A stretch of DNA of 64,000 nt from Candidatus Poribacteria bacterium (GTDB lineage Bacteria; Poribacteria; WGA-4E; JAJDTR01). Numbering within the stretch: the stretch's first letter is position 1; each line of letters starts with the position of its first letter. The notes below the pieces were generated by a model, which saw only the letters and a program-made list of their open reading frames with translations, did no database searches and was not told the origin of the DNA. Both the position numbers and the translations under genes were made by a program. Of the stretch, positions 39,079 through 56,927 are shown one piece after another. Location: assembly GCA_028820655.1 (NCBI GenBank), contig JAPPIK010000014.1, positions 271,079 through 335,078 on the forward strand, in the 5' to 3' direction.

Positions 39079-41082
39079 ATGTCCATAAACCTCATAGTTC
39101 TTCTTCTAATTTCCCCACTGATTGGGTTCCTCATCAACGGTCTGTTCGGTAAATGGTTGAGAAATGCCGAGAAGCTGAGTGGCGGGATTGCGTGCTTTGC
39201 CGTCCTGATCTCACTTATCTGCTCGGTTATCGTGTTTACCCACGTCAAAGACGGCGTCGAGTTAAACCAGAGGCTCTACGATTGGATTGCCTTTGAATCA
39301 TTTGGGTTCAGCAAAGCCGAACTAGGTTCTGCCGAGTCACCTACCCCCATATTCGAGTGGATTACCGGCAACTTTGCGTTCAACATCGGGTTTCACGTTG
39401 ATTCCCTTACCGCCGTGATGTTGCTGATTATTACGGGTATCGGATTTCTCATCCACGTCTACTCGATTGGTTATATGCACGGTGATGCCGGGTATACGCG
39501 GTACTTCGCCTATCTCAACCTCTTCGTGTTCGCGATGTTGATTCTAGTTTTGGCGGACAACTATCTAATGATGTTCGTCGGTTGGGAGGGCGTTGGACTG
39601 TGTTCATATTTGTTAATCGGTTTCTGGTACGAGAAAAAATCTGCAACCGACGCCGGCAAGAAAGCATTCATCGTTAACCGAATAGGTGATTTCGGCTTCC
39701 TGCTAGGGATGTTCACTTTGTTCGCTGCCTTCGGCACGTTGGACTTTATTCCGATTTTTGAGCAAGCCGAATTCTTTGAGCGTGCTGAATCAACCGGTTC
39801 CAACCTAGTCTTTGGGGGAAACACGCAATTTGGGGCAAGTACGCTAGCTGTTGCGACCTTGCTTCTCTTTGTCGGTGCGGTGGGAAAATCGGCGCAAATC
39901 CCGCTGTATGTCTGGCTGCCCGATGCGATGGAGGGCCCAACTCCGGTAAGCGCTCTCATTCACGCAGCTACAATGGTCACGGCGGGTGTCTATATGGTAG
40001 CGCGTTCCTCCGTGCTATTTGAAATTGCCGGCACGGGCGATGTGGTTGCGTGGATCGGCGTCCTCACGGCAGTCTTCGCCGCCATCATGGCGTTAGCTGC
40101 CAATGACATCAAGCGTGTGTTGGCGTATTCCACTGTGAGCCAACTCGGTTATATGTTCGTGGGCGTGGGAATCGGCGCCTATGCGTCCGGTATTTTTCAT
40201 CTAATGACGCACGCTTTCTTCAAGGGTTTGATGTTCCTGACGGCTGGCAGCGTGATGCACGCACTGTCCAACGAGCTTGACATGAGAAAAATGGGAGGCT
40301 TGCGGTCGAAACTTCCGATTACGCATGTGACGTTTCTCGTCGGGGCGCTCGCCATCTCAGGATTCCCGCTTCTGAGCGGTTTCTGGAGCAAAGATGAAAT
40401 TCTGCACAGCGCATGGGAGAAGGGGCATCCTATCATTTACGTGATAGGATTGGTGACGGCTTTTCTCACGGCATTCTACATGTTTCGCCTAATCTTCGGG
40501 ACATTTTACGGCAAATCCCGAGTTGATGCGAACGTTCATCCGCACGAGTCGCCGCCGGTTATGTGGGTGCCCCTGGCAATTCTCGCCATTCCGTCGGCGC
40601 TCATCGGTCTTGCCCTATTGAGTTGGAAGGGACATGACAGCGCGTTCCATCATTTCATCGGCGGTGCCTTTGTCCACCACGGCGAAAAAGCAGCCCATCA
40701 CGCAGACAATGTGCTGCTCTTCATGGCAATATCATCTATTGTGGGTATCGCGGGGATTGCTTTGGCTTGGGTGAAGTACCGCGATTGGACACCGCTAGAT
40801 CAACCGCGATCAGCAATTCACAAGCTGGCTGCGGAGAAGTTCTACGTAGATGAAATCTACAACGCTGTGATCGTTCAACCCATCAAGAATGCTTCCCAAT
40901 TCGTGCTGTGGCGAGGCGTGGATGTCTCAATTATTGACGGAATCGTGAACGGCGTCGCTTTTGTCGTGCGTACCGTGGGAGGCTCGCTGCGGCGGTTTCA
41001 GACGGGTGTTGTTCAGTCGTATATTGTATCAATGGTTATCGGCATCATCATTTTTTTGGCGTATTACCTGTTTATTCGATAG
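39079..41082 (+). CDS. nuoL: NADH-quinone oxidoreductase subunit L (antiporter-like, with long C-terminal helix)
   Basis: 667 aa; Mrp-antiporter-like core 'GWEGVGLCSYLLIGFW'. Confidence 0.95.
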   Translation: MSINLIVLLLISPLIGFLINGLFGKWLRNAEKLSGGIACFAVLISLICSVIVFTHVKDGVELNQRLYDWIAFESFGFSKAELGSAESPTPIFEWITGNFAFNIGFHVDSLTAVMLLIITGIGFLIHVYSIGYMHGDAGYTRYFAYLNLFVFAMLILVLADNYLMMFVGWEGVGLCSYLLIGFWYEKKSATDAGKKAFIVNRIGDFGFLLGMFTLFAAFGTLDFIPIFEQAEFFERAESTGSNLVFGGNTQFGASTLAVATLLLFVGAVGKSAQIPLYVWLPDAMEGPTPVSALIHAATMVTAGVYMVARSSVLFEIAGTGDVVAWIGVLTAVFAAIMALAANDIKRVLAYSTVSQLGYMFVGVGIGAYASGIFHLMTHAFFKGLMFLTAGSVMHALSNELDMRKMGGLRSKLPITHVTFLVGALAISGFPLLSGFWSKDEILHSAWEKGHPIIYVIGLVTAFLTAFYMFRLIFGTFYGKSRVDANVHPHESPPVMWVPLAILAIPSALIGLALLSWKGHDSAFHHFIGGAFVHHGEKAAHHADNVLLFMAISSIVGIAGIALAWVKYRDWTPLDQPRSAIHKLAAEKFYVDEIYNAVIVQPIKNASQFVLWRGVDVSIIDGIVNGVAFVVRTVGGSLRRFQTGVVQSYIVSMVIGIIIFLAYYLFIR

Positions 41083-41112
41083 GCTGACTAGACAGTTCTT
41101 CGGGGGTAAAGT

Positions 41113-42651
41113 TTGCTACTTTCAGCAGTTATCTTTCTGCCGCTCATCGGAGCGATAATCATCGCGCTGTTGAGAACGATCGTTGGCACATCGGCAATTA
41201 AAAGCATTGCCTTCGCAATTGCCTTGCTGACATTTGTCGTTTCGTTATCACTTTACACCGGATTCGACGAGACGACGCACTTCATGCAATTCAAGGTGCA
41301 AAAATCGTGGATTCCGGAGTTAGGCATTAGCTACCAGTTGGGAATCGACGGCATCTCATTATGGTTGGTTTTGTTGACGACCTTCTTGACTCCGATTTGT
41401 GTCTTGGCGGCTTGGGGATCGATTGAAAAAGGTACCAGCGGCTTCATGATTTCACTGCTGATGCTAGAGACAGGGATGCTGGGCGTATTCTGTGCACTCG
41501 ATCTATTCCTGTTCTTCGTATTCTGGGAGTCGATGCTCATTCCGATGTACCTGCTGATAGGAGTTTGGGGCGGCAAACGGCGAATTTACGCGACGGTCAA
41601 ATTCGTGCTCTATACGATGGCGGGCAGCGCGTTGATGCTTGTTGGAATCTTGTATCTCTATTTCCAGAATGACAACAGTTTTGACCTCATGACGTTGTAC
41701 GACAAAGCCGGATCTTTGGCGCATCAGCGTCTGCTGTTCCTCGGTTTCTTTATCGCATTTGCGATCAAGGTCCCACTATTCCCGTTTCATACTTGGCTTC
41801 CCGATGCGCACGTTGAGGCCCCAACGGTCGGCAGCGTGATTCTTGCGGGCGTGTTGCTCAAAATGGGAACCTACGGGATATTGCGATTCTGCATTCCACT
41901 TTTCCCCGAAGGCACGGTCGCTTTTACGCCGCTCATCTCCACGCTTGCGGTTATCGGCATCATCTATGGCGCTCTCGTTGCCATGGTGCAGCCCGACCTA
42001 AAAAAGTTGGTGGCATATTCGAGTGTCAGTCACCTCGGATTTGTCGTACTCGGGTTGTTTGCGCTGAACAGTCAAGGAGTACAGGGCGGAATCATTCAGA
42101 TGGTCAACCACGGGTTGAGCACGGGGGCGCTGTTCCTGCTTGTCGGTATGATTTATGAGCGTAGGCACACCCGCATGATTGCTGACTTCGGTGGATTGGC
42201 GAAGTGCATGCCTATCTTTGCCACGATATTCCTGATTGTTACCTTGTCATCAATCGGATTACCCGGGCTGAATGGTTTTGTCGGCGAATTCATGATTTTG
42301 CTCGGAAGCTTCATTTCAGGGGCTTTTTCCAAAGTGTATGCCGTGCTTGCCGCAACCGGTGTCATTCTCGCGGCTGTCTATATGCTGTGGATGTTCCAAC
42401 GCGTGATGTTTGGAAAGCTTGACAAACCGGAAAATCAGAGTTTGAAAGATTTGAATCTTCGGGAAGTTATCGTGCTACTTCCCATACTCCTGTTTATCGT
42501 GTGGATTGGCGTGTATCCCAAGCCGTTCCTGAGTCGGATAGAGAAATCCGTCAATCACGTTTTGAAAGAGCATACGAAGGTCATGGCGGCGATTACCGAT
42601 TCTCAAAACGCCGTGGTGGTAGATGCCGGATACGAAGAGGACCGTAAATAA
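41113..42651 (+). CDS. nuoM: NADH-quinone oxidoreductase subunit M
   Basis: 512 aa antiporter-like subunit; 'HTWLPDAHVEAPT' motif; TTG start. Confidence 0.95.
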   Translation: MLLSAVIFLPLIGAIIIALLRTIVGTSAIKSIAFAIALLTFVVSLSLYTGFDETTHFMQFKVQKSWIPELGISYQLGIDGISLWLVLLTTFLTPICVLAAWGSIEKGTSGFMISLLMLETGMLGVFCALDLFLFFVFWESMLIPMYLLIGVWGGKRRIYATVKFVLYTMAGSALMLVGILYLYFQNDNSFDLMTLYDKAGSLAHQRLLFLGFFIAFAIKVPLFPFHTWLPDAHVEAPTVGSVILAGVLLKMGTYGILRFCIPLFPEGTVAFTPLISTLAVIGIIYGALVAMVQPDLKKLVAYSSVSHLGFVVLGLFALNSQGVQGGIIQMVNHGLSTGALFLLVGMIYERRHTRMIADFGGLAKCMPIFATIFLIVTLSSIGLPGLNGFVGEFMILLGSFISGAFSKVYAVLAATGVILAAVYMLWMFQRVMFGKLDKPENQSLKDLNLREVIVLLPILLFIVWIGVYPKPFLSRIEKSVNHVLKEHTKVMAAITDSQNAVVVDAGYEEDRK

Positions 42652-44151
42652 GTGAAAAATACTAACTACCAATCCGTTTCTGTCGCCCTTGTTTTTGGTG
42701 TCATCTTTCTGCTGCTCCCCACGGTTGCAATTTCAGCCGAAAAGGGACATGATGCGACGCATGAAGGTGGCGCACATGCTCACGGCGAGCATCACGGAGT
42801 CAATGGCGCGGAACTGCCTCTCTGGAGCATAATTCCATTCTTGGGCATCTTGTTGTCGATCGCATTTTGGCAACTTATCGCACCGCACTTTTGGCATCAC
42901 AATTACGGAAAAATATCGCTCGCCTGGGCGCTTATTTTTGCTATACCCTACCTGATATTTTATCATGGGAGCGCGCTTTACGATATTCTGCACATCTATC
43001 TGATTGATTATATTCCGTTCATAATCTTGCTATGGGGATTGTTCACGGTTGCGGGCGGCATTGTGGTGCGCGGCACACTGCGCGGTACACCGGTTGTGAA
43101 CTTCGTTCTGCTGTTGATCGGTACCGCGATCGCGTCATGGATAGGGACAACCGGCGCCTCAATGTTGCTGATTCGGCCCCTCATTCGCGCCAACGCCTAT
43201 CGCAAAAACAAGACGCACCTCATTATCTTTTTCATCTTTCTGGTGAGCAACATCGGCGGCTCCCTGACACCGTTGGGCGACCCTCCCTTGTTCTTGGGAT
43301 TTCTGCACGGCGTGCCGTTTTTCTGGACCACGACGGCGCTGCTACCGCACATGCTATTCATCTGTGTGCTGCTGCTTGCGATATTCTTCATCGTGGATAC
43401 CGTCATGTTCAAGCGAGAGGGCGGCGTGGTTCCCGATGATGGCGAGAAAGAACCGATTCGGGTCGCGGGATTGTTTAATTTGATATTCCTCGGCGGAATT
43501 ATTGCCGGAGTGTTGATGAGCGGCACCTTTCAGTGGGGCGAGATCAACGTGTTGGGTGTACACGTCGCGTGGCAGAATATCCTGCGCGATCTGGCTATTG
43601 TCGCGATGGGGTTGCTCTCGTTGAAGTTTACTCCCTTCTCGGGCGCGCTGCGGCGTGAAAATCAGTTTGAGTGGGAACCGATTGCGGAAGTTGCCAAGTT
43701 GTTCGCTGGAATCTTCATGACAATCATCCCGGCGCTTGCGATTCTCAAAGCCGGGGAACAGGGGGCGCTAAGTGCGTTGATTCGCGCGGTGAAGGAGCCG
43801 TGGCACTATTTCTGGATCACCGGTGTTCTATCCAGTTTCCTCGACAATGCACCGACGTACCTGACATTCTTCAATACCGCACTCGGGAAACTCCATCTGA
43901 CGGAGGCGATGGCGCACAAAATACTTATCGGGGCGGCGGCGAATCCCGAATTCGTCAGGCTGCTGACCGCTATCTCTGTCGGTGCTGTGTTCATGGGTGC
44001 CAATACCTACATCGGGAACGCACCCAATTTTCTCGTCAGAGGAATTGCCGAGTCAAGCGGAATACGGATGCCAAGTTTCTTCGGATTCATGCTTTGGTCC
44101 GTCGGCATCTTGCTGCCGCTCTTTGTGGTTATAACTCTTGTGTTCTTTTAG
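42652..44151 (+). CDS. Ion-transporter-superfamily permease (ArsB/NhaD/CitMHS-like) with signal peptide and His-rich periplasmic N-terminus, inserted between nuoM and nuoN
   Basis: GTG start directly after nuoM stop; 'AEKGHDATHEGGAHAHGEHHG' after signal peptide; ~12 TM with duplicated hairpin-like 'GGSLTPLGDPP' / 'FLDNAPTYL' segments. Confidence 0.55.
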   Translation: MKNTNYQSVSVALVFGVIFLLLPTVAISAEKGHDATHEGGAHAHGEHHGVNGAELPLWSIIPFLGILLSIAFWQLIAPHFWHHNYGKISLAWALIFAIPYLIFYHGSALYDILHIYLIDYIPFIILLWGLFTVAGGIVVRGTLRGTPVVNFVLLLIGTAIASWIGTTGASMLLIRPLIRANAYRKNKTHLIIFFIFLVSNIGGSLTPLGDPPLFLGFLHGVPFFWTTTALLPHMLFICVLLLAIFFIVDTVMFKREGGVVPDDGEKEPIRVAGLFNLIFLGGIIAGVLMSGTFQWGEINVLGVHVAWQNILRDLAIVAMGLLSLKFTPFSGALRRENQFEWEPIAEVAKLFAGIFMTIIPALAILKAGEQGALSALIRAVKEPWHYFWITGVLSSFLDNAPTYLTFFNTALGKLHLTEAMAHKILIGAAANPEFVRLLTAISVGAVFMGANTYIGNAPNFLVRGIAESSGIRMPSFFGFMLWSVGILLPLFVVITLVFF

Positions 44152-44170
44152 TTGAGTTCGGAGGAAGTAA

Positions 44171-45613
44171 ATGACGGTGCCTGTCATCAACTGGCACATG
44201 CTGATGCCCGAATTGGTCATTGTCCTGACGTTTGTCATCGTGATGGTTTTTGACCTGTTCAAGTCAATCCGGAAGTCGATTCTCGCTTGGGTGACCATTA
44301 TCGGCAGCGCAATCGCGTTATGGGCATCCGTAGAAATGCTCCATGCAGGGGTGAACGGGAGCCAGTTCAACGGCATGTTGGCCGTAGATCGTTTTTCGAT
44401 GTTTTTCAAAATCATCTTCCTTGTGTCAACAATTTTAGTATCGCTAATTTCCATCAATTATTTGGACCGAGGAGATAAGCGGCAAGGGGAATACTACGTG
44501 TTAATCCTCTTGGCGACACTGGGCATGATGTTGATGGCATCTGGCAACGAATTGATTGTAGTTTTCCTCGGGTTGGAGTTGATGTCGCTGTCGTTGTATG
44601 TGTTGGCAGGATATTTCCGCTCCGTGCAGGTATCCAGCGAAGCCGGGATGAAGTATCTATTGCTGGGCGCATTCGCCAGCGGGTTCTTCCTATACGGCAT
44701 CGCGCTGATATACGGCGGCGCCGGGACAACGAGCATTCCCGAGATTGCCTCGGTACTGGAAGACGGAGAAAAATCTCCATTGATGCTCGCTGGGATGTTC
44801 CTGCTAATTGTGGGGTTCGGTTTCAAAGTGGCTCTTGTGCCGTTCCACCAATGGGCCCCCGACGTATACGAAGGCGCGCCAACCACAATCGCCGCTTTCA
44901 TTTCGGCGGGACCAAAGGCAGCCGGCTTCGCCGCATTTCTCAGGATTTTCACGAGTGCACTGGAGAGCCTCCAACCGGAGTGGATTGTCGTGATTGTCAT
45001 TCTCGCGGCGTTAACGATGACCGTCGGAAACGTGATCGCGACAGCTCAAAGCAACATCAAACGAATGCTGGCCTATTCGAGCGTCGCGCACGCCGGTTAT
45101 GTGCTGGTCGCGTTAGCGGCGGCTAACAAAGATGGCATTTCCAGCGCCATGCTTTACCTGCTCGTCTACTGCGTGATGAATATCGGCGCATTTGCCGCGG
45201 TTATCCTTGCGACAACCGAGGATGGCGAAAATCTCAAAATCTCCGACTACGCCGGACTCGGGTTTCGGAAGCCGCTGCTTGCGTTGTTCCTGTCCATCAT
45301 GCTAGTGTCCCTTGCAGGGTTTCCGCCCACAGCCGGCTTCGTCGGAAAGTTTTACGTGTTCCGTTCCGCCGTGGATGCGGGCCACATTTGGTTAGTTGTG
45401 ATCGCGGCGATCAATACCGCAATTTCAGCGTTTTATTATCTTCGCGTCGTTGTGGTGATGTATATGCAGGAACCTGACGAAGAACTCGAATATCACGCAT
45501 ACCCGGGTCTACTGGTATTTACGCTTCTTCTCGCTACAATCGGAGTCGTTCTGATTGGGGTATTGCCTTCGTATTTCTTGGGGCCCGCCCAAATTAGCAC
45601 ACAGTTCTTCTAG
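44171..45613 (+). CDS. nuoN: NADH-quinone oxidoreductase subunit N
   Basis: 480 aa antiporter-like subunit; N-terminal pattern typical of NuoN. Confidence 0.9.
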   Translation: MTVPVINWHMLMPELVIVLTFVIVMVFDLFKSIRKSILAWVTIIGSAIALWASVEMLHAGVNGSQFNGMLAVDRFSMFFKIIFLVSTILVSLISINYLDRGDKRQGEYYVLILLATLGMMLMASGNELIVVFLGLELMSLSLYVLAGYFRSVQVSSEAGMKYLLLGAFASGFFLYGIALIYGGAGTTSIPEIASVLEDGEKSPLMLAGMFLLIVGFGFKVALVPFHQWAPDVYEGAPTTIAAFISAGPKAAGFAAFLRIFTSALESLQPEWIVVIVILAALTMTVGNVIATAQSNIKRMLAYSSVAHAGYVLVALAAANKDGISSAMLYLLVYCVMNIGAFAAVILATTEDGENLKISDYAGLGFRKPLLALFLSIMLVSLAGFPPTAGFVGKFYVFRSAVDAGHIWLVVIAAINTAISAFYYLRVVVVMYMQEPDEELEYHAYPGLLVFTLLLATIGVVLIGVLPSYFLGPAQISTQFF

Positions 45614-45642
45614 ACCAGGTTTCCACGGGCGCGAGTCGCAAT

Positions 45643-45939
45643 GTGCCAAATGTATTAACAATGGCTATGTTTAAGCGGAGTCCGGAAGAGTGGAGCAGCC
45701 TTGGTCTCGTGATGATTGGAAGCACGCTTGTATTTGCAATCGGCATCGGATCCGGATTGGGTTGGTGGATTGGCGGGAAGTTGGGTAATCAAAAGATCGG
45801 GCTAATCATCGGGTTTGTCGTCGGAACCGCGGCGGGTTTCAGGGAGATGTTTCGAACGGTGTCGCGCTGGAATCGGCGGATGGAGGAACAGGATCGGACA
45901 AATCGAATCCATGAAGATGATTCGGGAGAGGGTTCATAA
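45643..45939 (+). CDS. atpZ: AtpZ/AtpI-family small membrane protein preceding ATP synthase genes
   Basis: Two Gly-rich TM helices 'LGLVMIGSTLVFAIGIGSGLGWWIGG' / 'IGLIIGFVVGTAAGF'; position upstream of atpI-atpB. Confidence 0.6.
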   Translation: MPNVLTMAMFKRSPEEWSSLGLVMIGSTLVFAIGIGSGLGWWIGGKLGNQKIGLIIGFVVGTAAGFREMFRTVSRWNRRMEEQDRTNRIHEDDSGEGS

Positions 45940-45940
45940 G

Positions 45941-46360
45941 ATGAGTTCTCGGTCCCCATTCGAAGTAGATGACAATTTTCTTCGGCAAGTCTATCGATTG
46001 ACGGTAGTGTTAGGTGTCATCGGTACGGTGATTCTCTGGACGGTTTACGGCACGCCGGAAGGGTTAAGTTTCGCGATCGGCGGCTTTCTCAGTTTAAGCG
46101 CGATTTTATCGTTGGAGTACGTCGTTCGCCGCTTGGTTAAACCCGGTGGTCCATCGCGAGCCAAACGTTTGATCGGGTTCATTTTATTGGGTAAATACAC
46201 GGTGATTTTTGGAGGGTTTTATCTGTTGATGAAGACGGATTGGCTAAACGTCTATTCCCTCGCAGCCGGAATTGGCGTGGTACAACTTGTGATTATCCTT
46301 AAAGCCGTCAAACTCATGACTGGCATTCTATTCAGCGACAAGACAACCAAAGATACTTGA
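45941..46360 (+). CDS. atpI: ATP synthase protein I
   Basis: ~140 aa, four hydrophobic segments, located between atpZ and atpB; ATG right after atpZ stop (alternative ATG 45911). Confidence 0.6.
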   Translation: MSSRSPFEVDDNFLRQVYRLTVVLGVIGTVILWTVYGTPEGLSFAIGGFLSLSAILSLEYVVRRLVKPGGPSRAKRLIGFILLGKYTVIFGGFYLLMKTDWLNVYSLAAGIGVVQLVIILKAVKLMTGILFSDKTTKDT

Positions 46361-46370
46361 TGACATTGCA

Positions 46371-47276
46371 ATGAAAAAACACTGTTTGCTTTTCTTTGTT
46401 ACGGTTTTCGTTCTGTTTGGAGTTGGATTCGATTTTGGGTTTGCGGCAGACGATGCCCATGATTCCTCACACGATACTCAGAGCGAAGGGGAACATGGCG
46501 GCGGCGGAGCCCATCCCCACTATTCTTGGCTGCATCCGTTGTCCAAAATCATTCCGAACCATATTATTCCGGAACCCCTCGGCTGGCAGCAGCCGGACCT
46601 GATCCTCAATGCCTATTTCGTAGTGTTGGTTATCACCATCCTTTTCTTTTTCGGGACGCGAAAGATGAAACGACTCCCCGAAGGCAGAGGACAGACTTTG
46701 CTGGAGTTGTTTGTCGGCGGATTGATAAACTTCTTTGGTGGGATTTTGGGTGAACACGGGAAAAAATATGTCCCGTTTGTCGGATCCTACTTTATTTTTA
46801 TCCTGTTCCTAAACTATATTGGTCTAATTCCCGGCTTTCTATCTCCGACAGCGGATTTGAACACGACGGTCGCGCTTGGTATTTCCGCGTTAATCGGTGT
46901 TCATGTCATAGCTATCAAGGAAAACGGGATCATCGGTTATTTGAAGCATTTTGTTGGCGATCCGTGGTGGCTTGCGCCTTTGATGTTTCCATTGCACATT
47001 ATCGGAGAAATTGCGCGCGCCGGGTCGCTAGCAATTCGGCTCTTTGGAAATATTTTTGGCGAGGAATCAGTCATAATCAACTTGACCATCTTAGGGCTTG
47101 CAGTTCCGCACATTTTCGGTATGATACCTTGGGCGCCAATTCAGGTGCCCATGCTGTTTTTCGGACTATTTGGCGGATTTTTGCAGGCGCTTGTGTTCTC
47201 GATGTTGACATCAATCTACATCGTTACGTTCCTTGAGCATCATGACGAAGAGCATGGTGCGGAGGCACATCACTAA
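46371..47276 (+). CDS. atpB: F0F1 ATP synthase subunit a with signal-peptide-like N-terminus and His-rich periplasmic extension
   Basis: Conserved Arg in 'IGEIARAGSLAIRLFGN'; N-terminal 'AADDAHDSSHDTQSEGEHGGGGAHPHY'. Confidence 0.9.
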   Translation: MKKHCLLFFVTVFVLFGVGFDFGFAADDAHDSSHDTQSEGEHGGGGAHPHYSWLHPLSKIIPNHIIPEPLGWQQPDLILNAYFVVLVITILFFFGTRKMKRLPEGRGQTLLELFVGGLINFFGGILGEHGKKYVPFVGSYFIFILFLNYIGLIPGFLSPTADLNTTVALGISALIGVHVIAIKENGIIGYLKHFVGDPWWLAPLMFPLHIIGEIARAGSLAIRLFGNIFGEESVIINLTILGLAVPHIFGMIPWAPIQVPMLFFGLFGGFLQALVFSMLTSIYIVTFLEHHDEEHGAEAHH

Positions 47277-47362
47277 ATGATGAGCGGCTATTGCCGTTCG
47301 TTCACACTGTTCTTCAGTGTTTCAATCTCGGTAAAAGTTCACAAATCTAAGGAGGAAATTCG

Positions 47363-47680
47363 ATGATTTATCTTGCAGTTTTAGCTTTCGGGGTGGCGCT
47401 CGGTTTGCCGATTGCGGTAATCGCGGCATCGACCGCACAGGGAAAGGCAACGAGTACCGCTCTTGAGGGCATTGCACGCCAGCCCGAGGCTGCACCCAGG
47501 ATTCAGGTAGCGATGATTATCGGTTTGGCTCTTATTGAGTCTCTTGTCATCTATTCGCTGCTTATCTTTTTCCTGTTGATGGGAAAACTCCCGGACGTTA
47601 CGCCGGCTGAAGGGGAAAAGGTTAGCCCGCTCGAGAAGATTATGCAAGCAGCGCCGAGCGAAGAAAGTCACGACCATTAG
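47363..47680 (+). CDS. atpE: F0F1 ATP synthase subunit c with ~25-aa C-terminal tail ending SEESHDH
   Basis: Hairpin with 'ARQPEA' loop and carboxylate in 'LALIESLVIY'; ggagg RBS. Confidence 0.9.
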   Translation: MIYLAVLAFGVALGLPIAVIAASTAQGKATSTALEGIARQPEAAPRIQVAMIIGLALIESLVIYSLLIFFLLMGKLPDVTPAEGEKVSPLEKIMQAAPSEESHDH

Positions 47681-47761
47681 AAAAACATACTGCATGAAAC
47701 GTACTGCGCGATCTTTGCGGTCGCGCGCTATGTTTCAGCGCAAACGACATTGCGAGTCATC

Positions 47762-48361
47762 ATGAAAAGATTTGGAAATTTAGCCTTACTCATCTGCATT
47801 AACATATTGATTGCGGCCCCGTATTCGTTTGCTGCCGGCGGAGAATCCGGAGGCGGCGGGCTGTTGGGCGCCATCGGACTCGACCCCAAGACAGTCATCC
47901 TACAAGTGCTGGGCTTTCTCGTGGTTCTGTCGGTGCTCTGGAAATTCGTTTTTAGCCGCGTCGGCGGACTGTTGGATGAACGACAGAACGAGATAAACTC
48001 GCGCATGGAAAAACTGGAGACGGACCAACAGGAGTTGGATCGGTTGAACGCCGAAACTCGTCAACGATTGAACGAGATTGAAGCGGAGGGACAAGCCAAG
48101 ATTCAATCCGCCATCAATGAAGGAAATGCCGAGAGACAGCGTATTCTCGATCAGGCGCGTCAAGAAGCCTCTGCCGAACTTGATAGAGCACGGGCGGAGA
48201 TTCAGCGCGAAAAAGATGAGGCCATCCTCGAATTGCGGAGCACTGTCGCCGAGGTTGCGATTGACGCGGCGAGCAAAATAATCGATCAAACGCTAGATGC
48301 CGAGAGACATCAGCACATTATCGATGAATCAATTCGCCGCCTGCCTTCACATAGCGCTTGA
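47762..48361 (+). CDS. atpF: F0F1 ATP synthase subunit b
   Basis: N-terminal TM then long charged coiled-coil (Q/E/R/A-rich); alternative TTG start 47750. Confidence 0.8.
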   Translation: MKRFGNLALLICINILIAAPYSFAAGGESGGGGLLGAIGLDPKTVILQVLGFLVVLSVLWKFVFSRVGGLLDERQNEINSRMEKLETDQQELDRLNAETRQRLNEIEAEGQAKIQSAINEGNAERQRILDQARQEASAELDRARAEIQREKDEAILELRSTVAEVAIDAASKIIDQTLDAERHQHIIDESIRRLPSHSA

Positions 48362-48501
48362 TGCTTTAGAATATTTGCCCGGAAGTTAATACACACTCGA
48401 GAAAAGCCGTAAGCAAGATGCCGGATGCCGTCAGTCTGCATGAAAGACGATCTTACGGAAGAATGTCATCACATGTCACTGTATATCGGAGCGTATAACC
48501 G

Positions 48502-49041
48502 ATGAGAGATGTTCGGATTGCCAAACCATACGCGCAGGCGTTGTACGATGCGGCGGCGGAGCAGGATGCTTTGGATCGCATCGTGGAGGATGCCAACCAA
48601 GTCCTGAGCTTGGCGCAAGAATCGGAAGATTTTGAAGGGTTCCTGACCAATCCGATTCTGTCGCCGCAGTTCAAGAGCGAGATGTTTCAGCAGCTCCTGT
48701 CGGAATTCATTCATCCGCTCACTCTGAACTTTCTGTCACTTCTGGCATCGAAACAGCGAGAAAGGTTCCTCGTGGCAATCTTACGGGCATTTTTGGAACT
48801 CGTCGATTTGAAAGCGGGACGTCTGGTTGCGCAGGTGACGTCTGCGGCTCCGCTCAGCGAGGCGCAGAAAGCTAGTCTTGTACAACACCTCAGCGATTAT
48901 TCCGGTGCCGAAGTGAGACTTGATTTGAGCGAAGATAGTGAGATCAAAGGCGGAATTGTCGTGCGGCTAGGCGACACGGTATTTGATGGAAGCGTCACGA
49001 CACAGTTACGGCGGCTACGATCGCTGCTTGCTAGAGGATAG
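48502..49041 (+). CDS. atpH: F0F1 ATP synthase subunit delta (OSCP)
   Basis: 'YA.ALY..A' N-terminus and C-terminal 'IKGG..VR.GD...DGS' typical of delta. Confidence 0.8.
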   Translation: MRDVRIAKPYAQALYDAAAEQDALDRIVEDANQVLSLAQESEDFEGFLTNPILSPQFKSEMFQQLLSEFIHPLTLNFLSLLASKQRERFLVAILRAFLELVDLKAGRLVAQVTSAAPLSEAQKASLVQHLSDYSGAEVRLDLSEDSEIKGGIVVRLGDTVFDGSVTTQLRRLRSLLARG

Positions 49042-49091
49042 ACCGGCAAGCAAAAGCAAGTTTGCTGTCGAATGAGGGGAGAAAATAGCTC

Positions 49092-50621
49092 ATGGCAAGG
49101 GAAGTTAGACCCGATGAAGTTTCAAATATACTAAAGCAACAATTGCTGCAATTCAATCAACAAGTAGACGTGTATGATTCCGGGACGGTGTTGGATGTCG
49201 GTGACGGAATCGCTCGCGTGCACGGGCTTGCCAATGTGATGGCGAGCGAGATGATTGAATTTCCGAATGACGTATTCGGCATGGCTTTCAATTTGGAAGA
49301 GGACAACGTCGGTTGCGTGCTTTTCGGCGAAGACAAGCTGATTCACGAAGGCGACATCGCCAAACGGACCAATCGATTGCTTGAGGTGCCGGTCGGGGAG
49401 GAGTTGCTCGGTCGAGTCGTCAATGCGCTGGGGCAGCCGATCGACGGCAAAGGGGAACTCGGTACCAGCGAGACACTACCCGTGGAACGAAAGGGTTTGG
49501 GCATTGTGCAGCGTCAGCCTGTTAGCGAGCCGCTGTATACCGGTTTGAAAGCAATCGACAGCATGACGGCTATCGGGCGAGGGCAGCGTGAGTTGATCAT
49601 CGGTGACCGGCAAACGGGCAAAACCGCAATCCCAATTGATACAATCATCAACCAGAAAAACACCGACGTGTTCTGCATTTACGTGGCGATCGGCCAGAAG
49701 GGATCTACGGTTGCCCAGGTTGTGACAACGCTTGAGCAGCACGGCGCGATGGACTACACCATTGTTGTCTCGGCGCCTGCCAGTGAACCGTCGCCGCTGC
49801 AATATCTTGCGCCGTATACCGGCACATCCATGGGAGAATTCTTCCGTGACAGGGGGCAGCATGCGCTGATCATTTACGATGATCTAACCAAGCACGCTTG
49901 GGCGTACCGGCAGATGTCCCTGCTCTCACGTCGACCGCCGGGGCGAGAAGCCTATCCCGGCGATGTCTTCTACCTGCACTCAAGATTGCTCGAACGCTCG
50001 GCGAAACTGAGTGACGAATTGGGAGCCGGTTCATTGACTTCGTTGCCTATAATCGAGATTTTTGAGGGCGACTTGACAACATACATTCCAACCAACGTGA
50101 TTTCGATTACGGACGGACAGATATACCTAACGTCGGAACTGTTCAATCAAGGTGTCCGTCCTGCGATTGATGTCGGTACGTCGGTTTCCCGTGTGGGTGG
50201 GGACGCACAGACTAAGGCTATGAAAGCCGATGAGGTGGCAGGCACGCTGAAGCTGGATTTAGCTAGTTTCCGTGAGGTCGCCGCCTTTGCTCAGTTTGGT
50301 TCCGATCTTGATGCATCCACGCAATCGCAACTTCGCCGCGGAGAGCGATTGGTGGAACTGCTTAAGCAGCCGCAATACGCGCCTATGCCCGTCGAGAGGG
50401 AGATTGTCTCGATATTCTGCGGATCGACGGGATATTTGGACGACGTTGAAGTGGCAGATGTTGAAAGGTTTGAGTCCGAATTTCTTGCCTACATGGATAG
50501 AAATCATGAAGGACTTCTGAAGGAGATTGCAGAAACGGGTGTTTTGAGTGATGACCTTATTGAGAGTCTTCATGACGCGGTGAAGAGTTTCAAGGAGCAG
50601 TTCCAAGTGAATGAGGCATAG
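49092..50621 (+). CDS. atpA: F0F1 ATP synthase subunit alpha
   Basis: P-loop 'GDRQTGKTA', 'YDDLTKHA' and overall alpha signature; 509 aa. Confidence 0.97.
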
Positions 50622-50835
50622 AGGTGACGAGGTGAAACTAAAAATCATTCTGCATGAAGCGGAAGAGGGAGGATATTGGGCTGAAGTCCCGTCAATTGAG
50701 GGATGTGTGAGTCAAGGTGAGACGCTTGACGACTTGATTGAGAACATCTCTGAGGCGGTAGAAGGCTGTTTATCTGTGGATATCAGTGAACGCGATATCG
50801 GCGAGAAAGATACAGTCATGGAGATAGCCGTTTGA
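50611..50835 (+). CDS. hicB: HicB-family antitoxin (UPF0150 / RNase-H-like fold only, no DNA-binding domain)
   Basis: '[39 protein letters not shown]' matches HicB N-domain pattern; start ATG 50611 (overlapping atpA stop) or GTG 50632. Confidence 0.6.
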
Positions 50836-51038
50836 AATCCCTAACGGGAAAAGAGTTTTGCCGCTTATTGAATAAGAAGGGATGGGAATTGAAGCGTGTA
50901 AAGGGCAGTCATTACATTTTCGCCAAAGGTACGCCTTCTGCTCGAATCTCAGTTCCTGTTCACGGGAATAAGACTCTCAAGCAGGGCTTGCAGCGGCATC
51001 TTATGAAAATAGCTGGTATTGATGAAAGTGAATTGTAG
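50832..51038 (+). CDS. hicA: HicA-family mRNA interferase toxin
   Basis: 'LTGKEFCRLLNKKGWELKRVKGSHYIF...ISVPVH' with conserved catalytic His in GSH; TTG start overlaps hicB stop by 4 nt. Confidence 0.7.
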   Translation: MKSLTGKEFCRLLNKKGWELKRVKGSHYIFAKGTPSARISVPVHGNKTLKQGLQRHLMKIAGIDESEL

Positions 51039-51059
51039 CAAGGAGTTCAGGGGTTTATA

Positions 51060-51926
51060 ATGGCAACGTTACGAGAGATCAGACGACGGATTGCGAGTGT
51101 TGAGAACATCAAACAAGTAACAGAAGCGATGCGAGTGGTTGCAGCGGCGAGGTTACGCCGCGCCCAAGAGAACATCTTGGCGACACGGCCGTTCGCCGAG
51201 AAGTTTAACGCGATTTTGAGCCACTTGATTGCGCAGATTGAGAATCCCACCCATCCGTTGCTAGAGAATAGGGAATTAAAAAACGTCTGTCTCATCTCTA
51301 TCAGCGCCGATCGCGGATTGTGCGGCAGTTTCAATAGTAATGTGATTCGTACCACGACGGAGAGAGCGCAGCATTATCAAGATGCCGGTGCCGCCGTGAA
51401 GATCATCTGTGTAGGCAGACGTACCCGGGACTATTTTGCACGGCGGGACTATGAGGTCATCGCCGAATATGTCAACATATTTCGAGATCTCAAGTTCGAA
51501 TCCGCTGTGGACATCGTTCATGAATTTGAGCATCTTTATACTGCACTGCAGATTGACAGGGTAGAGGTAATCTACAATAACTTCAAGTCCGCTATACTGC
51601 AGACGGTGCTCGTTGAACAGCTATTGCCGCTTACCCCGGAAGCACCGACGGGTGACGAACTCTTTCTCGATTATCTGTATGAGCCGGGACAGGAGGAAAT
51701 CTTCCAGTCGGTGTTGGCGAAACACCTGAACATGCAGATGTGGAAGGTATTGCTGGATTCCAACGCCGCGGAGCAGGCGGCGCGGATGGCAGCCATGGAA
51801 AACGCAACACGTAACGCCACGGATCTGATTGACGAGTTGATTTTGCAGCGCAACCGGGCGCGACAAACCCAGATTACGACGGAGATCTCCGAGATTGTGA
51901 GCGGTGCAGCGGCATTGGAGGGTTAG
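51060..51926 (+). CDS. atpG: F0F1 ATP synthase subunit gamma
   Basis: 'MATLREIRRRIASVENIKQVTEAM' N-terminus and C-terminal helix 'ITTEISEIVSGAAAL'. Confidence 0.9.
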   Translation: MATLREIRRRIASVENIKQVTEAMRVVAAARLRRAQENILATRPFAEKFNAILSHLIAQIENPTHPLLENRELKNVCLISISADRGLCGSFNSNVIRTTTERAQHYQDAGAAVKIICVGRRTRDYFARRDYEVIAEYVNIFRDLKFESAVDIVHEFEHLYTALQIDRVEVIYNNFKSAILQTVLVEQLLPLTPEAPTGDELFLDYLYEPGQEEIFQSVLAKHLNMQMWKVLLDSNAAEQAARMAAMENATRNATDLIDELILQRNRARQTQITTEISEIVSGAAALEG

Positions 51927-51927
51927 T

Positions 51928-53553: not shown

Positions 53554-53644
53554 AAGAAAAATTCGGAAAGTTGCAATCTAAACGGTTGTGAAACTATTCT
53601 TAACGATTGATGTGCCAAGTAATTTAGTCAAAGGAGGACAACCA

Positions 53645-54466: not shown

Positions 54467-54581
54467 TCGAGGGCGTTGTCGTTACGCCGTAGGCATTAAC
54501 TAGGAAGAGATGCTGGAAGCGGATGATCGGGCTAGTGTTTACAGCGCGAGTAGGAGGAGACTTTTGAGCACATCGAAGCCG

Positions 54582-54950
54582 ATGGTCATCAATCAGTCGG
54601 AGCAGTCTTGGGAGGGCTGGGATGATGCCGAACTCGCGGACAAAAGTGCGATTCGCTGGAAAATCCTTATATCCGGCGAACGCGGATTAGTCACCGGTAT
54701 AGCGGAGTTTCCGGTCGGCACTCGACTTCCCCTTCACCACCACGAACCCCCGGAGACCTATTACATCGTCAGCGGGAAGGGAACCATGGAGATGGACGGT
54801 CACAAAACAGACATCGGACCTGGATCGGCGGTCTACATCCCGTCCAATGCGAAACACGCTGTATGGTGCACGGGAAATGAACCATTAGTATTCGTATTTT
54901 CCTTCGCGAGTGATCGATTCGACCAGATAGTCTATCACTTTGACGAATAA
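54582..54950 (+). CDS. Cupin domain protein (RmlC-like cupin)
   Basis: Cupin motifs 'G.RLPLHHHEPPETYYIVSGKG' and 'G..VYIPSNAKHAV'; alternative TTG start 54564 after aggagg. Confidence 0.7.
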   Translation: MVINQSEQSWEGWDDAELADKSAIRWKILISGERGLVTGIAEFPVGTRLPLHHHEPPETYYIVSGKGTMEMDGHKTDIGPGSAVYIPSNAKHAVWCTGNEPLVFVFSFASDRFDQIVYHFDE

Positions 54951-54984
54951 GCGATTCGCGGAGGGGGCGCCAAAAAATCAACAC

Positions 54985-55293: not shown

Positions 55294-55391
55294 CTTGAAC
55301 GTGCGCGGGCGCTAGCGGCATACGTAAGCCAACTGAAGAGGATTAATCAAAAGATTCTCAGATATAATCTTACAGCGCCAGGGCGCGGTAG

Positions 55392-56927
<1,536 letters not shown>

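What the first reader, a model, noticed from the sequence alone, without database searches (positions are those of the whole stretch)
46371..47680. P-side His-rich or acidic extensions on Fo subunit a (N-terminus) and subunit c (C-terminus), echoing the nuo-inserted permease
Subunit a carries an extra N-terminal module: a signal-peptide-like helix followed by AADDAHDSSHDTQSEGEHGGGGAHPHY. It has the same flavour (HD..H, GGAH.H, GEH) as the N-terminus of the permease at 42652.

Subunit c is about 25 aa longer than usual, with a C-terminal tail PAEGEKVSPLEKIMQAAPSEESHDH. Both termini face the P side, where protons or Na+ enter the a/c half-channel.

The c-ring ion site reads Q(helix 1) ... ESLVIY, i.e. 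Q/E/S/Y of the Na+-type signature but L instead of T/S at +2. These decorations could be ion-capturing antennae or metal-binding sites, as seen in ATP synthases adapted to low proton availability. They might equally be assembly signals.
Basis: partly seen in the sequence, partly recalled or inferred. Interest (0 to 1): 0.55.

Follow-up and report, generated by a model that had tools for sequence, protein, structure and literature searches.

The report
Histidine-rich tails on ATP synthase stator
A sponge-associated Poribacteria ATP synthase has a membrane subunit a with an export signal and histidine-rich tails at both ends of its proton path, plus a long tail on its rotor subunit c; similar tails occur in several uncultured phyla and may speed proton delivery, which is untested.

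Summary
The window is a Candidatus Poribacteria contig with a nuo–atp gene cluster.

**Subunit a**
- Residues 1-25 look like a cleavable Sec-type signal peptide. The -1 residue is Ala in 109 of 117 relatives.
- Residues 26-51 form a His/Asp/Glu/Ser/Gly tail with no Lys or Arg.
- The signal peptide is phylum-wide. The His tail is variable: mature tails run from 6 to 35 residues and were gained or lost between clades.

**Subunit c**
- It carries a 28-residue tail after an invariant KLP. The tail is phylum-wide, acidic and polar, with a short predicted helix.
- It is not generally His-rich (2.6% His across 43 species).
- The Q...ESLVIY ion site lacks the Thr of the Na+ motif. It recurs in soil, lake-sediment and groundwater lineages, so H+ coupling is more likely.

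**Wider picture**
- His enrichment is position-specific: both ends of a and the permease N-terminus, but not b or c.
- His-rich a tails recur in Armatimonadota, Krumholzibacteriia, Eisenbacteria, Omnitrophica and others.

**Interpretation**
- The best precedent is the ice-worm ATP6 His-rich extension, which raised ATP synthesis about 5-fold when grafted onto E. coli AtpB.
- The favoured function is a tethered proton shuttle. It is inferred, not shown.

The parts
46371..47276 (+). atpB, F-type ATP synthase subunit a (301 aa)
   Evidence: The Pfam PF00119 score is 176.5 against a cut-off of 33.9. TIGR01131 scores 129.3 against 102.6. The protein aligns to solved a subunits. R223 aligns with E. 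coli R210.
46371..46445 (+). Predicted cleavable Sec-type signal peptide of subunit a (aa 1-25, MKK...GFA|A)
   Evidence: The n-region is MKK, the hydrophobic core is about 13 residues, and G-F-A sits at -3..-1. In 117 Poribacteria homologues -1 is Ala in 109, -3 is small in 113, and +1/+2/+3 read A/E/(D,E). Cleavage itself is not shown.
46446..46523 (+). Variable His/acid-rich P-side tail of mature subunit a (aa 26-51, ADDAHDSSHDTQSEGEHGGGGAHPHY)
   Evidence: It holds 6 His in 26 residues and no Lys or Arg. AF2 pLDDT is about 30 over this stretch, though the whole model is poor. Mature tail length in relatives runs from 6 to 35 residues. Long inserts are H 18%, S 16%, E 13%, D 12.5%, G 12% and K 0%.
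46518..46610 (+). Conserved periplasmic element leading into helix 1 (aa 50-80, HYSWLHPLS...PEP..W.QPDL..N)
   Evidence: H50, W53, P69, W72, Q74, P75, D76, L77 and N80 are invariant in 34 diverse Poribacteria. The element aligns with the Paracoccus 'FHPMDQF' N-terminal region. Helix 1 contributes to the periplasmic half-channel in Bacillus PS3 (PMC6377231).
47232..47273 (+). His/Glu-rich C-terminal tail of subunit a (aa 288-301, LEHHDEEHGAEAHH), cytoplasmic side
   Evidence: It is conserved in all 120 listed homologues. The last 14 residues average 29% His and 22% Glu over 45 species. It runs 10 residues past the position aligned with the E. coli C-terminus.
47363..47680 (+). atpE, subunit c (105 aa); hairpin aa 1-77 with Q26 and E59-S60-L61-V62-I63-Y64
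   Evidence: PF00137 scores 53.8 against 24 and TIGR01260 scores 45.3 against 43.95. The AF2 hairpin spans 2-39 and 41-73 with pLDDT 78. Q26, E59, S60, L61, Y64, K75, L76 and P77 are invariant.
47594..47677 (+). C-terminal P-side tail of subunit c (aa 78-105, DVTPAEGEKVSPLEKIMQAAPSEESHDH)
   Evidence: It lies beyond the end of every solved c subunit aligned. A tail of 21-60 residues follows KLP in all 120 homologues. AF2 predicts coil at 74-88, a helix at 89-96 (PLEKIMQA) and disorder at 100-105.
47762..47833 (+). Predicted signal peptide of subunit b (MKRFGNLALLICINILIAAPYSFA|AGGESGGGG...)
   Evidence: It is present in all Poribacteria loci with a b gene, with the pattern ..FA|A(E/G/D).. It is absent from b of the other phyla fetched. 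The gene start follows the ENA gene call.
42652..42807 (+). N-terminal module of the CitMHS_2 permease between nuoM and nuoN: signal-like helix + AEKGHDATHEGGAHAHGEHHGVNG
   Evidence: The Pfam domain starts at residue 53. Every Poribacteria locus that carries the permease has a His tract ending in the conserved HHGV(D)G. His averages 20% over 30 species.
40627..40707 (+). His-rich loop of NuoL before TM15 (KGHDSAFHHFIGGAFVHHGEKAAHHAD)
   Evidence: It has 7 His in 30 residues. It aligns with the loop that ends in 'EAHH' in the T. thermophilus, M. smegmatis and Paracoccus enzymes, so it is partly generic.

Best explanation
This is a standard-order F-type, most likely H+-coupled, ATP synthase of Poribacteria. 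Its membrane subunits carry extra extramembrane segments.

**Subunit a**
- It is made with a cleavable Sec-type signal peptide (aa 1-25).
- The signal peptide exports a disordered tail rich in His and carboxylates and free of Lys/Arg (aa 26-51).
- The tail is tethered about 25 residues upstream of helix 1, at the mouth of the periplasmic half-channel.
- A second, better conserved His/Glu cluster forms the C-terminus on the cytoplasmic side, next to the exit half-channel.

**Proposed mechanism**
- The two clusters act as tethered proton buffers or shuttles. The imidazole pKa is near neutral and is raised by neighbouring carboxylates.
- They would feed protons to the entry mouth and carry them away from the exit mouth, raising turnover at the ~pH 8 of seawater.
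- They may be organised by a bound metal.

**Subunit c**
- Its tail is a different kind of part: a phylum-wide acidic/polar cap with a short amphipathic helix on the periplasmic rim of the rotor.

**Shown**: the sequences, their conservation pattern, the position-specific His enrichment, and the wide taxonomic recurrence.
**Inferred**: signal-peptide cleavage, disorder, placement next to the channel mouths, and the proton-shuttle function.

The confidence given is for the whole statement including function. The anatomical part alone I would put near 0.85.
For: - **Anatomy and identity:**
- **Signal-peptide pattern:** conserved in 117 homologues. Subunit b carries one too.
- **P-side placement:** the positive-inside pattern in AtpI–a fusions. 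No K/R occurs in the tails.
- **Position-specific His enrichment within one complex, across 45 species:** a N-tail ~15%, a C-tail 29%, permease N-tail 20%, against b N-tail 0.9% and c tail 2.6%, with a background of 2.4%. This argues against plain compositional drift.
- **Independent recurrence:** 28 of 143 representatives at 50% identity have at least 6 His in 30 residues in the N-extension. 74 of 139 have at least 4 His in the C-tail. The two correlate (Spearman 0.34, p 5.5e-5).
- **Taxa with His-rich tails:** Armatimonadota, Krumholzibacteriia, Eiseniibacteriota, Fibrobacteraceae, Omnitrophica and Sumerlaeota.
- **Proton rather than Na+:** in those phyla the His tails accompany ordinary short c subunits with an EALTIY site.
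[quoted passage not shown] A proton-shuttle role was proposed for it (PMC6047255).
- **Channel geometry:** helix 1 lines the periplasmic half-channel (PMC6377231).
Against: - No experiment bears on these proteins.
- The N-terminal tail is dispensable in evolution. About half of the Poribacteria have only AEEAHR, and presence or absence switches between clades.
- Tail length and sequence are unconserved, as expected for a tolerated low-complexity spacer.
- The lineages with such tails come from lake sediment, groundwater and other habitats, not specifically alkaline or marine ones. An adaptation to low proton availability is therefore not evident.
- The His/carboxylate composition fits transition-metal binding equally well.
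- The correlation between N- and C-tail His content is not corrected for phylogeny.
- The mechanism of the ice-worm effect is itself unresolved. That extension sits at the exit side, not the entry side.
- The AF2 model of subunit a was poor (pLDDT 49.7), so disorder and placement rest on inference.
Confidence: 0.4

Rival explanations
1. The His/Asp/Glu clusters are transition-metal (Zn2+, possibly Ni2+/Cu2+/Co2+) binding sites. At the C-terminus a bound metal would order and cap the cytoplasmic channel, as in Pseudomonas aeruginosa. At the N-terminus, and on the permease, the tails would bind periplasmic metal, either as a regulator or as a sink protecting the channel mouth from inhibitory Zn2+.
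For: - In P. aeruginosa, aGlu182, aHis186, aAsp287 and aHis289 hold a metal, probably Zn, that caps the cytoplasmic channel. Single Ala mutants lose 25-45% of synthesis activity (PMC12796488).
- By alignment through E. coli, the four equivalent window positions are H193, D197, H290 and H291. All are potential ligands. H193 and H290 are invariant in Poribacteria.
- HxH, HH and HxxxH spacings occur in the tails. Tandem HGEA/HGD peptide repeats occur in other phyla.
- A metal ion has been proposed in the P-side channel of the Polytomella enzyme (cited in PMC12796488).
Against: - The ligand identities differ from P. aeruginosa (His/Asp in place of Glu/His). That paper found no similar site in the other species it surveyed.
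- The equivalence was derived by transitive alignment, not from a structure.
- A variable-length, position-unconserved N-tail is not a defined site.
- Metal binding and proton shuttling are not mutually exclusive. Known proton-entry clusters also bind Zn2+.
Confidence: 0.25
2. The N-terminal His-rich stretch has no specific function. It would be a tolerated low-complexity spacer between the signal-peptide cleavage site and the conserved HxSWL element, expanding and contracting by slippage. Only the signal peptide and the conserved elements would matter.
For: - Mature tail length ranges from 6 to 35 residues, and 52 of 117 homologues have the minimal form.
- Presence and absence alternate between related clades.
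- There is no positional conservation.
- Tandem peptide repeats occur in other phyla.
- Low AF2 confidence over the stretch.
Against: - The composition is not that of the other spacers in the same complex. The b and c tails have 0.9% and 2.6% His against ~15-18% here.
- The same His/acid, K/R-free composition arose at the same position in distant phyla and correlates with His-rich C-tails.
- There are no DNA tandem repeats in the window's module.
- The C-terminal cluster is strongly conserved, so this rival cannot cover it.
Confidence: 0.25
3. The enzyme is Na+-coupled, and the acidic/His decorations concentrate Na+ at the P-side entrance.
For: - Q26, E59, S60 and Y64 match four positions of the I. 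tartaricus / F. nucleatum Na+ site. There the Q/E32, E65 and S66 side chains bind Na+ and Y70 hydrogen-bonds to E65 (PMC3692424).
- The habitat is a marine sponge, so Na+ is in large excess over H+.
- The c tail is net acidic.
Against: - Thr67, which holds the fifth (water) ligand, is Leu61 here, and +3 is Val.
- The identical Q...ESL[VA]IY site occurs in Armatimonadota from lake sediment and groundwater, in Methylomirabilota and in soil Vicinamibacteria. ESLTIY occurs in a solved chloroplast ring.
- Imidazole is a poor Na+ ligand.
- The scores against the alternative (N-type) ATPase models are far below their cut-offs.
Confidence: 0.05

Closest known systems
Ice-worm (Mesenchytraeus solifugus) ATP6 His-rich C-terminal extension (PMC6047255, PMC12035521)
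   Same: - It is a short, disordered, His-rich extension on a terminus of subunit a, next to a proton half-channel mouth.
- A proton-shuttle role was proposed for it.
- Grafted on bacterial AtpB it raised ATP synthesis about 5-fold.
- The window's subunit a has such a tail at the same (C-terminal, N-side) end, and a second one at the N-terminus.
   Different: - The ice-worm tail is mitochondrial, 18 residues, (V/P)QDRSQAH(S/A)PGHAHSHGF. Its authors reported it as absent from other ATP6 sequences in GenBank.
- Here the tails are native to bacterial AtpB, are more acidic, and occur at both ends. The N-terminal one needs a signal peptide.
- No sequence homology to the ice-worm tail was tested or claimed.
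Pseudomonas aeruginosa ATP synthase: metal-capped cytoplasmic channel and c-subunit C-terminal extension (PMC12796488)
   Same: - The C-terminal tail of a, together with a loop before helix 5, binds a metal at the cytoplasmic channel. The equivalent window positions all hold His or Asp.
- P. aeruginosa c subunits have a C-terminal extension that crosses to the neighbouring c subunit and caps the ring exterior at the periplasmic interface.
   Different: - The P. aeruginosa c chain is 85 residues, only a few longer than E. coli c. The window's tail is 28 residues with a predicted helix.
- The ligand residues differ, and no structure or metal analysis exists for Poribacteria.
- P. aeruginosa subunit a has no signal peptide or N-terminal His tract reported.
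Cleavable leaders on Fo subunits (Aquifex aeolicus subunit c and b2 signal peptides; yeast Atp6 and chloroplast CF0-IV N-terminal processing; recalled from memory)
   Same: An N-terminal presequence is removed from an Fo membrane subunit whose mature N-terminus lies on the P side. c subunits with signal-peptide-like N-termini were seen here in Aquificota, Desulfobacterota and Methylomirabilota loci.
   Different: - In Poribacteria it is subunits a and b, not c, that carry the leader.
- The leader on a is followed by a His-rich tail.
- E. coli a and b insert through SecYEG/YidC without a cleaved leader (PMC9360617).
Alkaliphilic Bacillus pseudofirmus OF4 Fo adaptations (aLys180, c AxAxAxA, cPro51; recalled from memory, ring structure PMC2914638)
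   Same: The idea is the same: adapting Fo to scarce protons on the P side. The window's c also replaces the inner-helix GxGxGxG glycines, reading V19-A21-S23-A25.
   Different: - Those adaptations lie inside the membrane.
- The window has Gly230 where the alkaliphile Lys sits, and no Pro near E59.
- The decorations here are extramembrane tails.
Na+-binding c rings of Ilyobacter tartaricus / Fusobacterium nucleatum (PMC3692424)
   Same: Gln in helix 1, then Glu-Ser and Tyr in helix 2.
   Different: Leu replaces Thr67, which positions the water ligand. The motif is shared with non-marine lineages.

Membership tests
F-type ATP synthase subunit a (PF00119 / TIGR01131) | Profile match above the curated cut-off | tested here: met
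   PF00119 scores 176.5 against 33.9. TIGR01131 scores 129.3 against 102.6.
F-type ATP synthase subunit a (PF00119 / TIGR01131) | Essential Arg in helix 5 (E. coli R210) within the RLFGN motif | tested here: met
   R223 in AIRLFGNIFGEE aligns with E. coli R210 and is invariant in 34 homologues.
F-type ATP synthase subunit a (PF00119 / TIGR01131) | atp operon context (I-B-E-F-H-A-G, delta present) | tested here: met
   AtpZ-like, AtpI, a, c, b, delta, alpha and gamma are in order on the + strand. beta and epsilon lie further downstream.
F-type subunit c (PF00137 / TIGR01260) | Helical hairpin with an RQPE loop and a membrane carboxylate | tested here: met
   PF00137 scores 53.8 against 24 and TIGR01260 scores 45.3 against 43.95. 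The ARQPE loop and E59 are present. The AF2 hairpin has pLDDT 78.
Na+-translocating F-type c ring (I. tartaricus type) | Gln/Glu32, Glu65, Ser/Thr66 and Tyr70 equivalents | tested here: met
   Q26, E59, S60 and Y64, by alignment through the chloroplast and I. tartaricus chains. Ligand roles come from PMC3692424.
Na+-translocating F-type c ring (I. tartaricus type) | Thr/Ser67 holding the water ligand | tested here: not met
   L61, invariant in 30 Poribacteria.
Na+-translocating F-type c ring (I. tartaricus type) | Na+-dependent activity, or Na+ protection from DCCD | not testable with these tools
   This is a biochemical assay.
N-type (alternate F1F0) ATPase | Match to TIGR03306 / TIGR03322 above the cut-off | tested here: not met
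   The scores are 114.2 against 302.1 and 41.4 against 130.85. The delta subunit is present.
Sec-type signal peptide cleaved by signal peptidase I | Positive n-region, 7-15-residue hydrophobic core, small residues at -3 and -1 | tested here: met
   The pattern is MKK / LLFFVTVFVLFGV / G-F-A. In 117 homologues -1 is Ala in 109 and -3 is small in 113. This is a pattern analysis only; no dedicated predictor was available.
Sec-type signal peptide cleaved by signal peptidase I | Demonstrated cleavage (mature N-terminus) | not testable with these tools
   It needs N-terminal sequencing or proteomics.
His-rich proton-shuttle extension of subunit a (ice-worm ATP6 type) | Disordered His-rich extension at a terminus of a, next to a half-channel mouth | tested here: met
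   The C-tail LEHHDEEHGAEAHH runs 10 residues past the E. coli end. The N-tail has 6 His in 26 residues upstream of helix 1. Adjacency to the channel mouths is inferred from PMC6377231 and PMC12035521.
His-rich proton-shuttle extension of subunit a (ice-worm ATP6 type) | Alternating-His motif (HxHxH) | tested here: inconclusive
   The window has only HPH and HH pairs. Clear alternation (HGHDHGHGHGHAHAH, HEHEHEHGH) appears in other bacterial representatives.
His-rich proton-shuttle extension of subunit a (ice-worm ATP6 type) | Raises the ATP synthesis rate | not testable with these tools
   It needs vesicle assays as in PMC12035521.
P. aeruginosa-type metal cap of the cytoplasmic channel | Four ligands at positions equivalent to aGlu182, aHis186, aAsp287 and aHis289 | tested here: inconclusive
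   The window has H193, D197, H290 and H291 at the E. coli-equivalent positions E177, Q181, E270 and H271. The mapping to P. aeruginosa was inferred from the paper's E. coli-like mutant description. The residues are ligand-capable but not identical.
P. aeruginosa-type metal cap of the cytoplasmic channel | Bound metal | not testable with these tools
   It needs cryo-EM or ICP-MS.
Alkaliphile-type Fo (B. pseudofirmus OF4) | Lys at the position of E. coli aGly218 | tested here: not met
   Window G230 in GNIFGEE aligns with E. coli G218.
Alkaliphile-type Fo (B. pseudofirmus OF4) | c inner-helix AxAxAxA and Pro three residues before the carboxylate | tested here: inconclusive
   V19-A21-S23-A25 replaces the four Gly (alignment). 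There is no Pro near E59 (LALIESL).

The most novel reading that the evidence does not exclude
Tethered His/carboxylate tails are a widespread, so far undescribed design element of bacterial Fo in many uncultured phyla, placed at both mouths of the proton path. In Poribacteria the same chemistry decorates the P side of the nuo-embedded permease and the NuoL loop. Together they would form a surface proton relay that hands protons from complex I to ATP synthase, both encoded in one nuo–atp cluster. This would be a molecular basis for localised rather than bulk chemiosmotic coupling.
Probability: 0.1. Interest if true: 0.85.

Novelty: new variant of a known kind. Interest (0 to 1): 0.5.

Why it matters
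**Why the question is open**
- How ATP synthase obtains protons fast enough at neutral to alkaline pH is an old problem.
- The only direct experiment with a His-rich tail on subunit a is the ice-worm graft. It gave a striking 5-fold gain, but it rests on a single animal sequence said to be unique.

**What this finding adds**
- Bacteria carry such tails natively. They are phylum-wide at the C-terminus in Poribacteria.
- They are frequent at both termini in Armatimonadota, Krumholzibacteriia, Eisenbacteria, Omnitrophica and others.
- A signal peptide delivers the N-terminal tail to the periplasm.

**What becomes testable**
- This gives a large natural series of lengths and compositions, with natural presence/absence pairs among close relatives. 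They can be tested with the existing E. coli assay.
- It also gives candidate bacterial sources for the ice-worm extension.

If the tails turn out to be metal sites or neutral spacers, the finding reduces to a lineage-specific curiosity of Fo biogenesis: signal peptides on a and b, and a capped c ring.

Tried and rejected
- **AF2 model of subunit a** from 34 Poribacteria sequences. It was too poor to place the tail (pLDDT 49.7), so no fold search was run.
- **Shared origin of the a and permease His modules.** There was no blastn-short hit, and the peptide similarity is compositional. Rejected as a duplication.
- **DNA tandem repeats in the modules.** None were found.
- **Strict co-variation between the a insert, the His at the end of the c tail and the permease tract** across 45 Poribacteria genomes. 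Not found. The permease tract is always present, the a insert is patchy, and the c-tail His occurs in a few clades that only partly overlap.
- **NuoL His loop as a special feature.** It is partly generic, because the EAHH motif occurs in solved complex I structures.
- **NCBIfam name for the permease, AtpZ-like protein and AtpI.** None.
- **Lipoprotein reading of the a leader.** Rejected: there is no conserved lipobox Cys.
- **ATCUN-type N-terminal Cu/Ni site after cleavage.** Rejected: the first His is at mature position 5, not 3.
- **N-type ATPase.** Rejected on scores and operon content.
- **Literature searches for a described N-terminal His-rich extension of subunit a, or for Poribacteria ATP synthase.** Nothing direct was found.
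Full report
**Observation**

The coordinates hold two genes on the + strand.
- atpB spans 46371-47276 (301 aa). atpE spans 47363-47680 (105 aa).
- Both pass curated family thresholds: PF00119 and TIGR01131 for a, PF00137 and TIGR01260 for c.
- The Pfam a domain starts at residue 83. The closest solved homologue (Paracoccus) aligns from residue 54.
- Residues 1-53 are therefore extra: MKKHCLLFFVTVFVLFGVGFDFGFA followed by ADDAHDSSHDTQSEGEHGGGGAHPHY.
- Solved c subunits align to residues 3-77 at most. DVTPAEGEKVSPLEKIMQAAPSEESHDH is a 28-residue surplus.
- Among 45 long ORFs of the window (His 2.4%), only three stretches have at least 6 His in 30 residues. They are the NuoL loop, the permease N-terminus and the a N-terminus. 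Shuffles give a mean of 0.2, and none of 500 reaches three.

**Source and context**

- The exact a protein is encoded on a 463-kb ENA scaffold (ROBB21-1). Named relatives are all Candidatus Poribacteria.
- The gene order on one strand is nuoL, nuoM, a CitMHS_2 permease, nuoN, an AtpZ-like gene, atpI, atpB, atpE, atpF, atpH, atpA, hicB, hicA, atpG. Four unrelated genes follow before atpD and atpC.

**Subunit a, N-terminus**

All 120 listed homologues begin with a signal-peptide-like segment. In 117 that could be parsed:
- position -1 is Ala in 109, and -3 is small in 113
- +1, +2 and +3 are A, E and D/E.

This is the signal peptidase I pattern. The hydrophobic core is about 13 residues, short for a membrane anchor.

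Downstream lies a conserved periplasmic element. H50, W53, P69, W72 and Q74-P75-D76-L77 are invariant, and the element leads into helix 1.

Between the cleavage site and H50 the length varies.
- The mature tail is 6 residues (AEEAHR) in 52 homologues and up to 35 in others.
- Long inserts are H 18%, S 16%, E 13%, D 12.5%, G 12%, A 10%, T 9%, with K 0% and R 0.3%.
- In 45 species-level genomes the insert is present in the window's clade and several others and absent in between, so it was gained or lost repeatedly.

**Topology**

- The N-terminus of bacterial a and the C-terminus of c are periplasmic in solved enzymes. This is established knowledge; PMC12796488 states it for the c C-termini.
- The leader has a positive N-end, and the tail has no Lys or Arg.
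- In AtpI–a fusion proteins of other phyla the order is: four AtpI helices, a Lys/Arg-rich linker, one hydrophobic helix, the His tract, then the a core. This obeys the positive-inside rule and puts the His tract outside.
- Helix 1 lines the periplasmic half-channel in Bacillus PS3 (PMC6377231). The tail is therefore tethered near its mouth, which is an inference.
- The AF2 model of a was poor (pLDDT 49.7) and shows only that residues 20-54 are unstructured in the model.

**Subunit a, C-terminus**

- It is conserved in every homologue. Over 45 species the last 14 residues average 29% His and 22% Glu.
- It extends 10 residues beyond the E. coli end.
- The C-terminus of a is cytoplasmic and sits at the exit channel (PMC12796488, PMC12035521).
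- By alignment, window H193, D197, H290 and H291 occupy the positions of E. coli E177, Q181, E270 and H271. From the description in PMC12796488, these correspond to the four ligands of the P. aeruginosa Zn cap.

**His enrichment is position-specific**

| Segment (Poribacteria loci) | His content |
|---|---|
| a N-tail | ~15% |
| a C-tail | 29% |
| permease N-tail | 20% |
| b N-tail | 0.9% |
| c tail | 2.6% |
| proteome background | 2.4% |

**Beyond Poribacteria**

- Among the nearest 143 representatives at 50% identity, 28 have at least 6 His in 30 residues in an N-extension. Most of these follow one hydrophobic helix, and some are fused to AtpI.
- 74 of 139 have at least 4 His in the C-tail. 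Some show clear alternation, such as HGHDHGHGHGHAHAH.
- N- and C-tail richness correlate (Spearman 0.34, p 5.5e-5; Fisher odds ratio 4.2, p 0.003). This is not corrected for phylogeny.
- Named sources are Armatimonadota, Krumholzibacteriia, Eiseniibacteriota, Fibrobacteraceae, Omnitrophica, Eisenbacteria and Sumerlaeota. All are uncultured.

**Subunit c**

- All 120 homologues carry a tail of 21-60 residues after an invariant K75-L76-P77.
- The tail is acidic and polar, with a semi-conserved x-L-x-x-(M/L)-I-x-A-x-A pattern.
- AF2 (pLDDT 78) predicts coil at 74-88, a helix at 89-96 and a disordered end.
- Armatimonadota c subunits have a shorter version of the same KLP + helix tail.
- Terminal His residues occur only in the window's clade and a few others.
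- P. aeruginosa offers a small precedent. Its c C-termini extend to the neighbouring subunit and cap the ring at the periplasmic interface (PMC12796488).

The ion site:
- It has Q26, E59, S60 and Y64 but L61 in place of Thr67. The roles of these residues come from PMC3692424.
- The same Q...ESL[VA]IY site occurs in Armatimonadota from lake sediment and groundwater, in Methylomirabilota and in soil Vicinamibacteria. ESLTIY occurs in a solved chloroplast ring.
- I therefore read the ring as H+-type.
- The inner-helix GxGxGxG glycines are replaced by V19, A21, S23 and A25. In other systems such replacements go with larger rings. That point comes from memory and was not tested here.

**Subunit b**

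In every Poribacteria locus b also starts with a signal peptide (..FA|A..), followed by a short Gly/acid stretch. This is absent from b in the other phyla fetched.

**The 'echo' in neighbouring proteins**

- The permease module lies outside its Pfam domain.
- It is present in every Poribacteria locus that has the gene and ends in a conserved HHGV(D)G.
- It shares no DNA similarity with the a module. It does not co-vary with the a insert.
- The NuoL loop is partly generic, since EAHH occurs in solved enzymes.

**Mechanism**

I favour tethered proton shuttles at both channel mouths. The reasons are:
- the position-specific His enrichment
- the K/R-free composition
- the recurrence at the same two positions in distant phyla, together with ordinary H+-type c subunits
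- the ice-worm experiment, in which an 18-residue His-rich C-terminal extension raised the Vmax of ATP synthesis about 5-fold in E. coli and Caulobacter without changing hydrolysis (PMC12035521; proposal in PMC6047255).

Metal binding is the main rival and may coexist with shuttling. A neutral spacer remains plausible for the N-tail, given its patchy distribution, but not for the C-tail. A Na+ antenna is unlikely.

**Novelty**

- I found no description of signal peptides on bacterial a and b, of N-terminal His tracts on a, or of a 28-residue c tail.
- The ice-worm papers state that their extension is absent from other ATP6 sequences. The bacterial C-tails seen here contradict that in spirit.
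- I class the finding as a new variant of a known kind.

**Limits**

- Signal-peptide cleavage is inferred from pattern only.
- The His thresholds are arbitrary.
- The representatives are not phylogenetically independent.
- No structure places the tails.
- The mapping to P. aeruginosa residues is indirect.

Noticed in passing
window 39079-51926 (and L060, L065, L073, L080): The nuo genes run straight into the atp genes on one strand (nuoL-M-permease-N, then atpZ-I-B-E-F-H-A-G). nuoL-M-N directly upstream of atp is also seen in Vicinamibacterales, Methylomirabilota and Parachlamydiaceae loci.
   Followed up: partly
window 42652-44151: A CitMHS_2 (PF16980) permease is inserted between nuoM and nuoN. 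It recurs in most Poribacteria loci that reach that far, and all have a conserved HHGV(D)G motif just before the first core helix. It has no NCBIfam name.
   Followed up: partly
window 50611-51038: A HicB/HicA toxin-antitoxin pair sits between atpA and atpG. hicB overlaps the end of atpA by 11 nt.
   Followed up: no
window 51904-55517: atpG is separated from atpD/atpC by four unrelated genes: a dockerin + Cu2_monoox_C protein, an unknown exported protein, a cupin and a DJC28_CD protein.
   Followed up: no
window 47762-47900; L002-L045: Subunit b of all Poribacteria has a predicted signal peptide followed by a Gly/acid-rich stretch. b of the other phyla fetched does not.
   Followed up: yes
window 47417-47443 (c residues 19-27): The inner-helix GxGxGxG packing motif of subunit c is replaced by V-x-A-x-S-x-A (F at the second position in most Poribacteria). 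This may mean an unusually wide c ring.
   Followed up: partly
P0274, P0279, P0291, P0296, P0308, P0331 (representatives): These are natural AtpI–subunit a fusion proteins. They have an extra hydrophobic helix and a His-rich tract between the two parts.
   Followed up: partly
P0267, P0255, P0271, P0245, P0344 (representatives): These bacterial subunit a proteins have alternating-His C-terminal tails (for example HGHDHGHGHGHAHAH). They resemble the ice-worm ATP6 extension, which was reported as unique (PMC12035521).
   Followed up: partly
L059, L063-L067, L070-L075, L077, L060, L081: c subunits of Thermodesulfobacteriota, Aquificota, Desulfobacterales, Syntrophobacteraceae, Methylomirabilota and Vicinamibacteria carry signal-peptide-like N-terminal extensions.
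   Followed up: no
window 40627-40707: The NuoL loop before TM15 has 7 His in 30 residues. It is a richer version of the EAHH motif present in solved complex I structures.
   Followed up: partly
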